This document shows, piece after piece, positions 35,099 through 37,305 of a stretch of DNA of 64,000 bases. Both the position numbers and the translations under genes were made by a program. Under the pieces are notes generated by a model that saw nothing but the letters and a program-made list of their open reading frames with translations, was not told the origin of the DNA and did not search any database. The DNA lies in the sequence record NC_012638.1. One strand, 5' to 3'. Within the stretch, counting starts at the first letter, position 1; each line of letters opens with the position of its first letter. Origin of the DNA: Escherichia phage RB14.

Positions 35099-35662
35099 TT
35101 ATTTACCTAGTTTAGTTATTATAGCTTCGGCAGCAGCTTTTAGCTTAGATGCAGTGTTAATACGATTTTTAATTTCAGTATAAGCATCGCCAAGAACATC
35201 AAGGCTATCAGAATAAACACTTACACTATTGCGTTCGCTATTTGAAATAGAACCTTTAGTTTTACGATCAAAATCGGTATACACGTCTTGAAGATCGCGG
35301 GCTGCCTTCTTTGCATCATCCAATGCATCAAGAGCTTTATTCAAAGCATTAACATATTTTTTAGTGTCGAACATATTCTTAGAAATTTTGACAGGTGCGC
35401 GTTCAGGAGTAGCTAAGGCAGATTTAGGAACTTGAGCGCCAGATGCTAGTTTCTTAGAAATTTTGAAAAATGCTTTATTGAAATTATTTTCTTGACTCAT
35501 CGTAAAAGAACTATTATCGATGTTATACATTTCAATAGCTTTAGCTTTCCACTTAAGAAAATCGCCACGGTCTTTTGGGTCCAAGTGGAAGAATACTTTA
35601 GTAAGATCTGCTTCAGATGGTAATTTTGCTGCTTCGGTTAAAAATTCGGCATAAGTTTTCAT
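35099..35662 (-). CDS. Internal-protein-like protein with capsid-targeting sequence
   Basis: 187 aa; N-terminal MKTYAEFLTEAA; hairpin terminator downstream. Confidence 0.6.
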   Translation of the reverse strand: MKTYAEFLTEAAKLPSEADLTKVFFHLDPKDRGDFLKWKAKAIEMYNIDNSSFTMSQENNFNKAFFKISKKLASGAQVPKSALATPERAPVKISKNMFDTKKYVNALNKALDALDDAKKAARDLQDVYTDFDRKTKGSISNSERNSVSVYSDSLDVLGDAYTEIKNRINTASKLKAAAEAIITKLGK

Positions 35663-35744
35663 TTAAAATCCTTGAAATAATTTATTGGTTATTAATTATT
35701 TATCACGTTGTTATCATCCATGTTAGCATTCTCTGAGTGATTCA

Positions 35745-35775
35745 AACTAAAAAGCCCCAACCTTTCGGTCGGGGC
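35745..35775 (-). terminator. Rho-independent terminator at end of tRNA/stable-RNA cluster
   Basis: 9-bp stem GCCCCGACC/GGUUGGGGC with GAAA loop then UUUUUAGUUUG. Confidence 0.7.
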
Positions 35776-35824
35776 TAAGCCTTGCGGCAACCTTGTCGGG
35801 GTTCCACCTGCTAAGGCAAGTGTT

Positions 35825-35919
35825 TGTACGAAACGCCGGGATTCGAACCCGGTTATTAAGCAGTTGACGCTACTCAATATTTTTAAAAGGCCATATCTCG
35901 ACCATATCCGAACGTTCCG
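35825..35919 (-). ncRNA. tRNA-like small stable RNA candidate (T4 species 1/2 RNA position)
   Basis: 7-bp acceptor-like stem CGGAACG/CGTTTCG flanking a canonical T-arm CCGGG-TTCGAAT-CCCGG, but 60 nt between them with no standard D/anticodon arms; no CCA. Confidence 0.35.
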
Positions 35920-36092
35920 TCAAAAACGCTACTCGGCTTATGGCAAAGATATTTCCTCGAATCGATAATTCGGTGCGCCGTTTCTGCTGTGATATAAGGG
36001 GGCATTAACAAAACATAAAGATTTATTAATGCCAGTCCTTAAACAGGGAACATCAGTCCGACGACTTGCCGGTAGCGACCCGGCTTCTTGTC

Positions 36093-36168
36093 TGGTCGAG
36101 GCAGTAGGGATCGAACCTACGACCCAGGACTTAGAAGGTCCTTGCTCTTCCTTCTGAGCTATGCCTCG
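36093..36168 (-). tRNA. tRNA-Arg (anticodon UCU)
   Basis: Cloverleaf read by hand: acceptor CGAGGCA/TGCCTCG, anticodon loop CTTCTAA, T-loop TTCGATC, encoded CCA. Confidence 0.85.
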
Positions 36169-36172
36169 TATT

Positions 36173-36247
36173 TGGCGGACGTGATAGGATTCGAACCTAT
36201 AACCAATCGCTTAACAGGCGATCGCTCTGCCATTGAGCTACACATCC
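36173..36247 (-). tRNA. tRNA-Asn-like (anticodon GUU), atypical, possible pseudogene
   Basis: D-arm GCTC/GAGC, anticodon arm ATCGC-CTGTTAA-GCGAT, T-arm ATAGG-TTCGAAT-CCTAT, CCA; 5' acceptor strand looks 2 nt short. Confidence 0.45.
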
Positions 36248-36249
36248 AA

Positions 36250-36336
36250 ATTGGTGGGGAGTGATGGAGTCGAACCACCCGAGTCGCAATGACAATGAAT
36301 TTACAGTCCACACCGCTACCTCTACGGGATAACTCC
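36250..36336 (-). tRNA. tRNA-Tyr-like (anticodon GUA), class II with long variable arm
   Basis: Acceptor GGGGAGT/ACTCCCC, anticodon loop CTGTAAA, 15-nt variable arm, T-loop TTCGACT, CCA; D-arm atypical. Confidence 0.55.
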
Positions 36337-36347
36337 CCTAATTAATT

Positions 36348-36422
36348 TGGTGGCCCTGGGTGGAATTGAACCACCATCTGGCGATTATGAGTCGCTTGCT
36401 TGAACCTTCCAGCTACAGGGCC
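36348..36422 (-). tRNA. tRNA-Ile (anticodon CAU, T4 type)
   Basis: Acceptor GGCCCTG/CAGGGCC, anticodon loop CTCATAA, T-loop TTCAATT, CCA. Confidence 0.85.
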
Positions 36423-36423
36423 T

Positions 36424-36499
36424 TGGTGCTGATTGACGGAATCGAACCGCCGACCTTCTCATTACAAGTGAGTTGCTCTACCTACTGAGCTAAATCAGC
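36424..36499 (-). tRNA. tRNA-Thr (anticodon UGU)
   Basis: Acceptor GCTGATT/AATCAGC, anticodon loop CTTGTAA, T-loop TTCGATT, CCA. Confidence 0.88.
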
Positions 36500-36504
36500 A
36501 AAAC

Positions 36505-36594
36505 TGGCGGAGGCGATAGGATTTGAACCTATGAGTCGCCGGAGCGACTGCCGGTTTTCAAGACCGGTGCATTAAACCACTCTGCCACGCCTCC
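36505..36594 (-). tRNA. tRNA-Ser (anticodon UGA)
   Basis: 90 nt class II; acceptor GGAGGCG/CGCCTCC, anticodon loop CTTGAAA, long variable arm, CCA. Confidence 0.9.
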
Positions 36595-36596
36595 AG

Positions 36597-36668
36597 TCTC
36601 CATACAAGGATTTGAACCTTGGACCTCCTGATCCCAAATCAGGCGCTCTACCAAACTGAGCTACACGG
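36597..36668 (-). tRNA. tRNA-Pro (anticodon UGG), CCA not encoded
   Basis: Anticodon loop TTTGGGA, T-arm CAAGG-TTCAAAT-CCTTG; 3' end 2 nt from tRNA-Ser 5' end. Confidence 0.8.
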
Positions 36669-36678
36669 AGTAAATTAA

Positions 36679-36752
<74 letters not shown>

Positions 36753-36757
36753 GCAAA

Positions 36758-36844
36758 TTTGGTGCGAGAAGTGGGACTCGAACCCACAAGGAAATCATTC
36801 CGCAGCATTTTAAGTGCTGTGCCTTTACCAATTTGACCATTCTC
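36758..36844 (-). tRNA. tRNA-Leu (anticodon UAA)
   Basis: 87 nt class II; acceptor GCGAGAA/TTCTCGC, anticodon loop CTTAAAA, long variable arm, CCA. Confidence 0.88.
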
Positions 36845-36845
36845 G

Positions 36846-36918
36846 CGCTGGGAATAAAGGACTCGAACCTTTGCATCCTGGAATCAAAATCCAGTGCCTT
36901 ACCAACTTGGCTAATTCC
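36846..36918 (-). tRNA. tRNA-Gln (anticodon UUG), CCA not fully encoded
   Basis: Acceptor TGGGAAT/ATTCCCA, anticodon loop TTTTGAT, T-loop TTCGAGT; abuts tRNA-Leu. Confidence 0.85.
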
Positions 36919-37017
36919 CAATTATTAACAAAGGCTCTCTAACAAGAACCCTTGATGATAGAGGGTATTAATCAGTGCGGTATGAGTTAATAATAACAAA
37001 TAATTCTTAAAGCATAT

Positions 37018-37305
37018 TTACCATTTATGATAATACGTATTTACGATACATTCAAGACCCAAAGGATTCTTGAAAATATCATATTCAAGAGGACCTTTTT
37101 CTGTTTCAATAAAGAAATCAAAATTTACTATATTAAATTTACGGTCTTCCTTCACTAATTTAACCTGAGAAGATGAACGGTCAATGTAAACCTTTTCAAC
37201 TTCAAAACATGTTAAAATGCCATAATCATCAATCAAGGCTTTAGCTGCTTCTTGATCATATTTATATCCATTTTCAATGGATGATACTTTAGCATAAAGA
37301 ATCAT
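37018..37305 (-). CDS. hypothetical protein
   Basis: ORF track 95 aa. Confidence 0.45.
   Translation of the reverse strand: MILYAKVSSIENGYKYDQEAAKALIDDYGILTCFEVEKVYIDRSSSQVKLVKEDRKFNIVNFDFFIETEKGPLEYDIFKNPLGLECIVNTYYHKW

What the first reader, a model, noticed from the sequence alone, without database searches (positions are those of the whole stretch)
35745..36092. tRNA-like module without D or anticodon arms next to tRNA-Arg: candidate stable small RNA
Downstream of tRNA-Arg there is a perfect T-arm (CCGGG-UUCGAAU-CCCGG) flanked by a 7-bp acceptor-like pairing (CGGAACG/CGUUUCG). The 60 nt between them cannot form standard D and anticodon arms. The region also holds other hairpins and ends in a strong terminator. 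T4 encodes two stable RNAs of unknown function at the equivalent position.
Basis: partly seen in the sequence, partly recalled or inferred. Interest (0 to 1): 0.5.

Follow-up and report, generated by a model that had tools for sequence, protein, structure and literature searches.

The report
T4 stable RNAs rnaC and rnaD

Summary
The interval lies on the minus strand, at the 3' end of a 10-tRNA operon of a T4-like phage. It holds orthologues of T4 rnaD (35972-36091) and rnaC (35828-35964; 136/139 identical to T4), then a 51-nt trailer and an intrinsic terminator (35749-35776). The T-arm is real and belongs to rnaC. The proposed acceptor pairing (internal CGGAACG with CGUUUCG) can form but is not the conserved one. 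In 27 distinct homologues from about ten phage genera, the partner of CGUUUCG is the mature 5' end CGAUUCG. That stem shows A-U/G-C covariation and is fully paired in Tegunavirus, while the internal pairing breaks in 14/27. rnaC is therefore a 137-nt tRNA-shaped RNA. It has a 7-bp acceptor stem, U73 and a canonical T-arm. A ~65-nt arm replaces the D-arm, and a 10-bp arm with a 6-nt loop replaces the anticodon arm. The two non-tRNA loops (UUGACG/CGUCAA) are complementary in 27/27 sequences, with two independent compensatory changes, which suggests a kissing interaction. The ends fit tRNA-type maturation. The locus is already known and expression is documented for T4; the function remains unknown.

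The parts
36093..36168 (-). tRNA-Arg(UCU), last of 10 tRNA genes (36093-36920). Context only; the stable RNAs follow it on the same strand.
   Evidence: ARAGORN; Rfam tRNA 65.8 bits.
35972..36091 (-). rnaD (species 2 RNA) orthologue, 120 nt. It starts 2 nt after tRNA-Arg and ends in ...GGCGCACC. T4 encodes ACCA here; this window has ACCG.
   Evidence: Alignment to the T4 and T2L annotated misc_RNAs. 734 phage records match. Folding z = -3.8. Consensus fold has 5 covarying pairs.
36068..36084 (-). rnaD 5' hairpin GCCGG-GUCGCUA-CCGGC, with an invariant 7-nt loop. The closing pair covaries (G-C here, A-U in T4).
   Evidence: Its antisense is the spurious '+ strand terminator'.
35965..35971 (-). 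AU-rich spacer GAAUUAU between rnaD and rnaC. U at -1 precedes the first base of the rnaC acceptor stem. The same AAUUAU spacer follows tRNA-Trp in Karamvirus.
35828..35964 (-). rnaC (species 1 RNA) orthologue, 137 encoded nt, running from C+1 of the acceptor stem to the discriminator U73.
   Evidence: 136/139 identical to T4 rnaC. The ends follow the X03016 annotation of species 1 RNA. 100% identical to Shigella phage Shfl2 over rnaC plus trailer. Folding z = -4.1.
35958..35964 (-). Acceptor stem 5' strand CGAUUCG. It pairs with 35829-35835 as 5 Watson-Crick pairs plus a tandem U.U.
   Evidence: Present in the minimum-free-energy fold. Column pair 14-149 is G-C in 15 and A-U in 12 sequences; the two U.U become U-A and C-G in Tegunavirus.
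35888..35957 (-). Long irregular arm in the place of a D-arm: an AGG/CCU base, then 7+6+4+6 bp. The sequence is replaced in some genera but the architecture and length are kept.
   Evidence: The apical stem has 5 of 6 pairs with compensatory changes.
35918..35923 (-). Apical loop UUGACG of the long arm, the candidate kissing partner of 35864-35869.
   Evidence: Six of six positions are complementary in 27/27 sequences. UUGGCG/CGCCAA occurs in Marfavirus and UUGAUG/CAUCAA in Tegunavirus. Partners slid by 1-3 columns pair in only 17-50% of cells.
35913..35919 (-). It is in fact the 3' part of the apical loop and stem of the long arm.
35880..35887 (-). Conserved single-stranded A-rich junction UUUAAAAA.
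   Evidence: AAAA(A)U is invariant across the genera.
35854..35879 (-). 10-bp arm with the 6-nt loop CGUCAA (35864-35869), lying 1 nt before the T-arm. It occupies the anticodon or variable-arm position and cannot decode.
   Evidence: 8 of 10 pairs have compensatory changes; 95% of cells are paired.
35836..35852 (-). T-arm CCGGG-UUCGAAU-CCCGG.
   Evidence: Unique in the window. 100% paired in 27 sequences, with 2 covarying pairs.
35829..35835 (-). Acceptor stem 3' strand CGUUUCG, followed by the discriminator U (35828) and then ACAAA. CCA is not encoded here; Marfavirus homologues encode U-CCA.
35777..35827 (-). 3' trailer with small hairpins. It is removed from the mature RNA and is conserved even in Dhakavirus, where rnaC is absent.
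   Evidence: (H95-H98).
35749..35776 (-). Intrinsic terminator of the tRNA/stable-RNA operon: AGCCCCGACC-GAAA-GGUUGGGGCU followed by a U-run.
   Evidence: Annotated as a potential terminator at the equivalent T4 position.

Best explanation
The interval is the rnaD-rnaC locus (species 2 / species 1 stable RNAs) of a T4-like phage. It is transcribed on the minus strand as the tail of the tRNA operon and ends at an intrinsic terminator.

The flagged T-arm belongs to rnaC, a 137-nt tRNA-shaped RNA. Its first seven bases (CGAUUCG) pair with CGUUUCG to give a 7-bp acceptor stem. That stem stacks on a canonical 5-bp T-arm and is followed by the discriminator U73. The D-arm is replaced by a ~65-nt irregular hairpin. 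The anticodon arm is replaced by a 10-bp stem with a 6-nt loop.

The loops of these two arms (UUGACG and CGUCAA) base-pair with each other. The pairing is either within one molecule (a kissing loop that locks the fold) or between molecules.

Inferred mechanism of biogenesis: because its termini are tRNA termini, rnaC is excised like a tRNA. RNase P cuts after U-1, the 3' trailer is trimmed back to U73, and the host enzyme adds CCA. This would explain why the RNA accumulates as a stable ~140-nt species.

The RNA cannot decode. Its most likely role (inferred, low confidence) is to present the acceptor/T-arm 'top half' of a tRNA to a tRNA-recognising host or phage factor late in infection, as a decoy or adaptor. 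rnaD is a separate, independently inherited structured RNA with a tRNA-like ...ACC(A) 3' end.
For: Identity. 136/139 identity to T4 rnaC and about 90% to rnaD, in the same order after tRNA-Arg. The same features are annotated in the T2L, RB33 and X03016 records. 804 phage records match rnaC and 734 match rnaD.

Structure. On 27 distinct homologues the model is 90.2% paired, against 36-47% when partners are slid. 18 pairs have changes on both sides, and 0 of 500 shuffles reach the observed score. The terminal acceptor stem covaries, and the minimum-free-energy fold of nearly every homologue reproduces the same four-way shape even where the long-arm sequence is replaced.

Kissing loops. 100% paired in 27/27 sequences, with two independent double changes.

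Termini. X03016 places species 1 RNA exactly from C+1 to U73. U-1 is nearly invariant. Marfavirus copies encode U-CCA. In Karam-, Moon-, Gelderland-, Teguna- and Kagamiyamavirus the gene sits flush between tRNA genes.

Expression and background. Host nucleotidyltransferase is known to complete some T4 tRNAs (reference list seen). A stable late-accumulating transcript was shown for T4 by RNA-seq and Northern blot.

Autonomy. rnaC occurs alone in Kanagawavirus, with no tRNA within 500 nt. rnaD occurs alone in Dhakavirus and in Providencia phage PSTCR6.
Against: Nothing about expression, processing or CCA addition can be tested on this window itself; all of it is carried over from T4 or inferred from the sequence.

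The acceptor stem has a tandem U.U in 25/27 homologues, so only 73.5% of its cells are standard pairs.

The kissing-loop covariation rests on two lineages (3 plus 2 sequences). The long arm (~25 bp) must kink for an intramolecular kiss. In KaAlpha the complementarity extends into an alternative ~19-bp duplex.

The GG/CC base of the long arm is invariant, so covariation cannot test it. Record annotations disagree by 1-3 nt on the RNA ends.

No evidence here bears on the decoy/adaptor function. Reviews from 2010 to 2025 still call the function unknown.
Confidence: 0.9

Rival explanations
1. One reading: a minimal tRNA-like module consisting only of a T-arm plus an acceptor stem formed by the internal CGGAACG (35913-35919) and CGUUUCG (35829-35835), with about 60 nt of unstructured insert between them.
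For: The pairing is possible in this window and in all T4-type sequences (6 Watson-Crick plus 1 G-U). Overall 83.6% of its cells are paired in the 27-sequence alignment. It could exist as a minor alternative conformer, because the terminal stem is weakened by two U.U.
Against: None of its seven pairs shows a change on both sides, and the third pair is broken in 14/27 sequences. At that same 3' column the terminal stem shows perfect A-U/G-C covariation in 27/27. In Tegunavirus three of the seven pairs are lost, while the terminal stem becomes 7/7. The internal strand belongs to the apical loop and stem of the long arm, where 5 of 6 pairs covary. The minimum-free-energy fold uses the terminal stem. 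The annotated mature 5' end coincides with the terminal stem.
Confidence: 0.05
2. rnaC is only a decayed tRNA gene or a cis-acting processing and stability element of the tRNA operon (a 3' structural cap or RNase P entry site), with no trans function of its own.
For: It always has tRNA-type termini and usually lies in or next to tRNA clusters. From my own knowledge, not checked here, the tRNA region is dispensable in the laboratory.
Against: The two non-tRNA arms and their 6-nt loops are conserved and covary across about ten genera. A pseudogene, or a mere cap, would not be expected to retain that. rnaC persists alone between protein genes in Kanagawavirus. It accumulates as a discrete stable late RNA in T4.
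Confidence: 0.12
3. The interval encodes small proteins, as many GenBank records annotate ('hypothetical protein' over rnaC/rnaD). In this window these would be the 61-aa ORF 35692-35877(-) and the 42-aa ORF 35883-36011(-).
For: ORFs of 42-61 aa exist on the minus strand. Dozens of automated annotations call CDSs here.
Against: The substitutions are paired and compensatory in RNA stems. Single-nucleotide indels occur between close relatives (L100, ZX13). The ORFs start with TTG and run across the boundaries of structured RNA elements. The curated T4, T2L and RB records annotate RNAs, not CDSs.
Confidence: 0.02
4. The complementary loops reflect a DNA-level inverted repeat (a protein-binding palindrome) or an alternative extended RNA duplex, rather than a kissing-loop tertiary contact.
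For: TTGACG...CGTCAA is an inverted repeat in the DNA as well. In KaAlpha and Marfa-type sequences the predicted minimum-free-energy fold uses the complementarity in a nested long-range helix.
Against: In 27/27 sequences both hexamers sit exactly in the 6-nt loops of separately covarying hairpins. In T4-type sequences the complementarity stops at the loop borders.
Confidence: 0.15

Closest known systems
Bacteriophage T4 rnaC (species 1 RNA) and rnaD (species 2 RNA)
   Same: Orthologous sequence (136/139 for rnaC, about 90% for rnaD). Same order after tRNA-Arg, same trailer and terminator. The function is unknown in both.
   Different: Nothing essential. This phage has the T2-type tRNA set (10 tRNAs, no segB) and ACCG instead of ACCA at the rnaD 3' end. 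The covariation-supported fold and the loop-loop pairing described here are not in any record or paper I could read.
Canonical tRNA
   Same: A 7-bp acceptor stem closing the 5' and 3' ends, a discriminator base, a 5-bp T-stem with a UUCGAAU loop, 12-bp acceptor/T coaxial geometry, flush placement among tRNA genes, and CCA encoded in some homologues.
   Different: No D-arm; a ~65-nt hairpin takes its place. The 10-bp arm has a 6-nt loop, so there is no anticodon loop. The acceptor stem has a tandem U.U. ARAGORN and the Rfam tRNA model do not recognise it.
tmRNA tRNA-like domain
   Same: An acceptor stem plus T-arm retained on a larger RNA that does not decode by an anticodon; processed by RNase P.
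   Different: No tag reading frame and no pseudoknot series. The insertion is at the D-arm side rather than replacing the anticodon arm. No G3.U70. ARAGORN finds no tmRNA here, and the Rfam tmRNA models give only sub-threshold hits (11.0 and 10.1 bits against a gathering score of 47); the only one inside this interval covers just the rnaC T-arm (35836-35852).
   Same: Two short, mutually complementary hairpin loops that covary between relatives.
   Different: No sequence or Rfam similarity. From my own knowledge, T4 packaging needs no RNA. Whether the rnaC loops pair within or between molecules is untested.
Bacterial Y-RNA-like YrlA and viral tRNA-like structures
   Same: A tRNA-mimicking module fused to extra helices in a non-coding RNA.
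   Different: No Rfam match. No Ro-binding helix was identified. Not located at a genome or mRNA 3' end.

Membership tests
T4 rnaC (species 1 RNA) | Sequence homology to the T4 gene | tested here: met
   136/139 identical over the full length; nhmmer E about 1e-48.
T4 rnaC (species 1 RNA) | Position: downstream of tRNA-Arg and rnaD, upstream of the operon terminator | tested here: met
T4 rnaC (species 1 RNA) | Accumulates as a stable RNA of about 140 nt in infected cells | not testable with these tools
   Shown for T4 only (Northern blot and RNA-seq, PMC9697503).
T4 rnaD (species 2 RNA) | Sequence homology and position immediately 3' of tRNA-Arg | tested here: met
   The conserved 5' 45 nt and 3' 25 nt flank a variable centre.
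Canonical tRNA | 7-bp acceptor stem joining the 5' and 3' ends, plus a discriminator base | tested here: met
   35958-35964 pairs with 35829-35835, with covariation. There are two U.U mismatches. U73 is invariant.
Canonical tRNA | T-arm: 5-bp stem and 7-nt loop UUCRANY | tested here: met
Canonical tRNA | D-arm (3-4 bp, GG loop) and anticodon arm (5 bp, 7-nt loop) | tested here: not met
   A ~65-nt arm and a 10-bp/6-nt-loop arm take their places.
Canonical tRNA | Recognised by tRNA detectors | tested here: not met
   ARAGORN finds none. Rfam tRNA is below threshold; tRNA-Sec scores 16.6 bits against a gathering score of 47.
tmRNA | tRNA-like domain plus a tag reading frame and pseudoknots | tested here: not met
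   ARAGORN reports no tmRNA. Rfam tmRNA and permuted tmRNA score 11.0 and 10.1 bits against 47; the 11.0-bit hit lies at 36173-36200, in the neighbouring tRNA-Asn gene, and only the 10.1-bit hit (35836-35852, the T-arm) is inside the interval.
Any curated Rfam family | Score at or above the family gathering threshold | tested here: not met
   Only tRNAs pass in the window. Nothing passes in 35745-36092.

The most novel reading that the evidence does not exclude
rnaC is a CCA-tailed tRNA mimic. With an invariant U73 it might even be aminoacylated. It would act late in infection as a decoy or adaptor for a tRNA-recognising factor, for example a host tRNA-targeting defence nuclease or a processing or translation factor. 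That would give the 50-year-old orphan RNAs of T4 a role in host-specific fitness.
Probability: 0.15. Interest if true: 0.7.

Novelty: already known. Interest (0 to 1): 0.3.

Why it matters
As a discovery it does not matter: the scan re-found T4's species 1 and species 2 RNA genes, known since the 1970s.

The locus is still one of the oldest unexplained features of the best-studied phage. The comparative fold derived here corrects the naive reading of the tRNA-like part. It shows that rnaC and rnaD are separable modules kept across about ten genera. It also points to a specific, mutable tertiary contact (UUGACG x CGUCAA) and to tRNA-type ends, both of which give clean handles for genetics and biochemistry.

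Two practical points follow. No Rfam family covers these RNAs. Many deposited genomes mis-annotate them as hypothetical proteins.

Tried and rejected
- **Alanine identity.** I dropped this once the true acceptor stem showed A-U or G-C there.
- **Rfam at permissive E-values.** This gave only noise: tRNA-Sec, isrK, sar and others, all far below their gathering scores.
- **Looking for more distant homologues.** Two further IMG/VR pattern scans, one metagenome scan and nhmmer over 256 loci added only T4-type and Marfa-type copies. No third independent loop covariation event was found.
- **UGGUCGAG in the rnaC arm.** It is perfectly complementary to the 3' end of this phage's tRNA-Arg (CUCGACCA, I7). 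T4 has a different tRNA-Arg and UGGUUGAG, so I treat the match as chance.
- **rnaD/rnaC complementarities.** I3 and I5, and the rnaD loop CGCUAC against rnaC GUAGCG, are at chance level for RNAs of this size and were not pursued.
- **Old primary papers.** Paddock & Abelson, Mazzara et al. and Miller et al. 2003 are not held in the library. Statements about the 140-nt RNA length, RNase III cleavage and the p2Sp1 precursor rest on my own knowledge and were not verified.
- **Late promoter.** A TATAAATA motif is at 37259-37266(-), but such motifs occur at the chance rate in the window.

Full report
**What is in the sequence**

ARAGORN finds ten tRNA genes, all on the minus strand, from 36920 down to 36093. 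In order they are Gln, Leu, Gly, Pro, Ser, Thr, Met, Tyr, Asn and Arg. The flagged interval 35745-36092 must therefore be read on the minus strand, as the region downstream of tRNA-Arg.

On that strand the T-arm CCGGG-UUCGAAU-CCCGG is at 35836-35852. It is followed directly by CGUUUCG at 35829-35835, and CGGAACG lies at 35913-35919. The 17-mer T-arm occurs once in the 64-kb window even when 3 mismatches are allowed, against 0.02 expected by chance.

No tRNA or tmRNA is called in the interval by ARAGORN. No Rfam family reaches its gathering score there. At permissive E-values the best hit is tRNA-Sec, at 16.6 bits against a threshold of 47. A 10-bp GAAA-loop hairpin followed by a U-run lies at 35753-35776.

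**Identity**

BLAST against phage records finds 804 matching genomes, almost all T4-like phages of Escherichia, Shigella, Yersinia, Salmonella and related hosts. One of them, the T2L tRNA-cluster record, annotates the matching stretch as 'rnaD: species II RNA' and 'rnaC: species I RNA'. The T4 reference genome has the same two misc_RNAs directly after tRNA-Arg.

Alignment places the rnaC orthologue at window 35827-35965, with 136 of 139 positions identical to T4. The rnaD orthologue is at 35972-36091, about 90% identical. Over rnaC plus the trailer the window is 100% identical to Shigella phage Shfl2 (H41).

The interval is thus the known stable-RNA locus of T-even phages. It consists of rnaD, a 7-nt spacer, rnaC, a 51-nt trailer and the operon terminator.

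The literature I could read calls both RNAs 'of unknown function' in 2010, 2022 and 2025. The 2022 study confirmed them by RNA-seq and Northern blot as late-accumulating T4 transcripts.

**The acceptor stem**

The minimum-free-energy fold of rnaC instead pairs CGUUUCG with the extreme 5' end, CGAUUCG (z = -4.1 against shuffles).

To decide between the two, I collected homologues from outside Tequatrovirus. The sources were Karamvirus, Moonvirus, Tegunavirus, Gelderlandvirus, Kagamiyamavirus, Kanagawavirus, Mosigvirus and Marfavirus, together with IMG/VR and metagenome contigs. This gave 27 distinct sequences, aligned as A3.

For the terminal stem:
- The third pair is G-C in 15 sequences and A-U in 12, with no exception.
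- The two central U.U mismatches become U-A and C-G in the two Tegunavirus sequences, which gives a perfect 7-bp stem there.

- No pair changes on both sides.
- The third pair is broken in 14 of 27 sequences, exactly where the terminal stem covaries.
- Three of the seven pairs are lost in Tegunavirus.
- The strand it uses belongs to the apical stem of a hairpin in which 5 of 6 pairs show compensatory changes.

The old T4 record X03016 independently annotates species 1 RNA from the C of CGATTCG to the T that follows CGTTTCG. That is from position +1 of the terminal stem to the discriminator.

**Architecture of rnaC**

Counted on A3, the full model is 90.2% paired, against 36-47% when the 3' partners are slid by 1-3 columns. 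It has 18 pairs with changes on both sides, and 0 of 500 shuffles reach the observed covariation score.

The parts, in window coordinates on the minus strand, are:
- Acceptor stem: 35958-35964 paired with 35829-35835.
- Long arm: an AGG/CCU base, then an irregular arm, together 35888-35957.
- Junction: single-stranded UUUAAAAA, 35880-35887.
- Second arm: 10 bp with the loop CGUCAA, 35854-35879. Eight of its ten pairs are compensatory.
- One A as a linker.
- T-arm: 35836-35852, 100% paired, with 2 covarying pairs.
- Discriminator: U73 at 35828.

In Gelderland-, Kanagawa- and Marfavirus, and in some Karam- and Moonvirus copies, the sequence of the long arm is replaced. Each of these homologues still folds on its own into the same four-way shape, with an arm of similar length.

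This is a tRNA-shaped molecule with a normal 'top half' (acceptor stem plus T-arm). It has no D-arm and no 7-nt anticodon loop, so it cannot decode.

**A loop-loop pairing**

The apical loop of the long arm is UUGACG (35918-35923). It is the exact reverse complement of the loop of the 10-bp arm, CGUCAA (35864-35869). Both hexamers are conserved even where the surrounding arm sequence is replaced.

They change together twice, in unrelated lineages: UUGGCG with CGCCAA in the Marfavirus group, and UUGAUG with CAUCAA in Tegunavirus. All 162 cells are standard pairs, against 17-50% for slid partners.

The simplest reading is a 6-bp kissing interaction. I cannot tell whether it forms within one molecule or between molecules. 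An intramolecular kiss would require the ~25-bp arm to kink at its internal loops.

In Klebsiella phage KaAlpha the complementarity extends into the stems, and an alternative ~19-bp duplex is predicted. The covariation rests on only two events, and further scans did not add a third.

**How it is probably made**

This part is inferred. The evidence is as follows:
- The mature 5' end coincides with the first base of the acceptor stem, and a nearly invariant U precedes it.
- The 12-bp acceptor/T helix and the T-loop are intact.
- In Karam-, Moon-, Gelderland-, Teguna- and Kagamiyamavirus the gene lies flush between tRNA genes, typically tRNA-Trp and tRNA-Gly. The same AAUUAU spacer that follows rnaD in T4 is found upstream of it there.
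- After U73 the genomes read ACA (T4-type), UCA (Tegunavirus) or CCA (Marfavirus).
- The X03016 gene is 137 nt. From my own knowledge, the sequenced RNA was reported as 140 nt, and the T2L record annotates 140 nt.

Together these fit excision by RNase P, 3' trimming to U73 and CCA addition by the host nucleotidyltransferase. That route is known for the T4 tRNAs that lack an encoded CCA (references listed). None of this can be tested with the tools here.

**rnaD and modularity**

rnaD has a conserved 5' hairpin at 36068-36084, with the invariant loop GUCGCUA and a covarying closing pair. It has a central domain that exists in at least three unrelated sequence versions. A 6-7-bp stem leaves ...A-CC(A) single-stranded at the 3' end. 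CCA is encoded in T4 and in Providencia phage PSTCR6, while this window has ACCG. Five pairs covary in the consensus fold.

The two RNAs are inherited independently:
- Dhakavirus has rnaD joined directly to the trailer, with rnaC missing.
- PSTCR6 has rnaD alone, between tRNA-Arg and tRNA-Ile.
- Kanagawavirus has rnaC alone between protein genes, with no tRNA within 500 nt.

This argues that each RNA has its own function, and that rnaC is more than a processing signal for neighbouring tRNAs.

**Function**

No result here shows the function. Given a conserved tRNA top half, a sequestered 'anticodon-side' loop, late accumulation and dispensability in the laboratory, my best guess is tRNA mimicry towards a tRNA-recognising protein, as a decoy or adaptor. 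I put that at about 0.2.

One published hint of host-specific selection exists. All lines of a T4-like phage adapted to the semi-permissive host ECOR34 acquired the same SNP in rnaD.

The rivals are a mere pseudo-tRNA or cis element, small ORFs, and a DNA-level palindrome. All are less consistent with the covariation pattern.

**Verdict**

The interpretation as a stable RNA equivalent to those of T4 is right, but the proposed module anatomy is wrong. The locus is already known, so novelty is nil at the level of the finding.

The added value is threefold: a covariation-supported secondary structure, a candidate kissing loop, and a clearer picture of the family's range and modularity. Rfam has no family for either RNA, and many deposited genomes annotate hypothetical proteins over them.

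Noticed in passing
L133 (Dhakavirus CLBP2) 351-487; L137 (Providencia phage PSTCR6) 502-633; L126/L128 (Kanagawavirus) 497-646: rnaC and rnaD are separable. Dhakavirus keeps rnaD fused straight to the trailer and terminator, with rnaC precisely absent. PSTCR6 has rnaD alone, between tRNA-Arg and tRNA-Ile. Kanagawavirus has rnaC alone, with no tRNA within 500 nt.
   Followed up: partly
L005, L003, L004, L007, L008, L129 (Karam-, Moon-, Gelderland-, Kagamiyamavirus): In these genera the rnaC homologue sits inside the tRNA cluster, flush between tRNA genes (usually Trp and Gly). The same AAUUAU spacer lies upstream of it as in T4.
   Followed up: yes
L001 1343-1693 (T2L trna.2), L136 2-352, L134 112-351; L138 869-1342 (RB33): Optional ORFs are inserted at the borders of the stable-RNA genes in many relatives. 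One lies between tRNA-Arg and rnaD, and a 474-bp ORF lies between the rnaC trailer and e.8. These explain the two-piece BLAST hits. This window has neither ORF, and it also lacks segB.
   Followed up: partly
window 35692-36011 and the equivalent regions of many GenBank records: Dozens of deposited T4-like genomes annotate 'hypothetical protein' CDSs, and one annotates 'tRNA-OTHER', over rnaC/rnaD. These are likely mis-annotations of RNA genes. No Rfam family exists for either RNA.
   Followed up: partly
window 35926-35934 and 35867-35875 (-): The 9-nt direct repeat GAGUAGCGU forms the 5' strands of both loop-bearing hairpins of rnaC. This may be a trace of an internal duplication.
   Followed up: no
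window 35976-35984 vs 35830-35838; 36079-36091 vs 35828-35840: The rnaD 3' segment GAAACGGCG is 8/9 complementary to the rnaC 3' strand CGGCGUUUC. The rnaD 5' end is 10/13 complementary to the rnaC 3' end. These could form long-range helices in the dimeric precursor, or they could be chance.
   Followed up: no
L008 (Klebsiella phage KaAlpha) rnaC homologue, about 629-765: The loop-loop complementarity extends into the flanking stems, so an alternative ~19-bp long-range duplex is the predicted minimum-free-energy fold. This suggests a possible conformational switch.
   Followed up: no
window 35099-35662 (-): The 187-aa ORF just after the terminator matches only phrog_2280 (unknown function, E = 1e-53). 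Its Pfam match (cytochrome b562) is weak and below threshold.
   Followed up: partly
window 36252-36338 (-): ARAGORN calls tRNA-Tyr here, but it is absent from the Rfam gathering-threshold list, which has 9 tRNAs against ARAGORN's 10.
   Followed up: no
window 36068-36084 (+): The '+ strand terminator-like site' of the consensus scan is simply the antisense of the rnaD 5' hairpin. It is an artefact.
   Followed up: yes
window 37259-37266 (-): A T4 late-promoter-like TATAAATA lies about 340 nt upstream of the first tRNA gene. The motif count in the whole window is at chance level.
   Followed up: no
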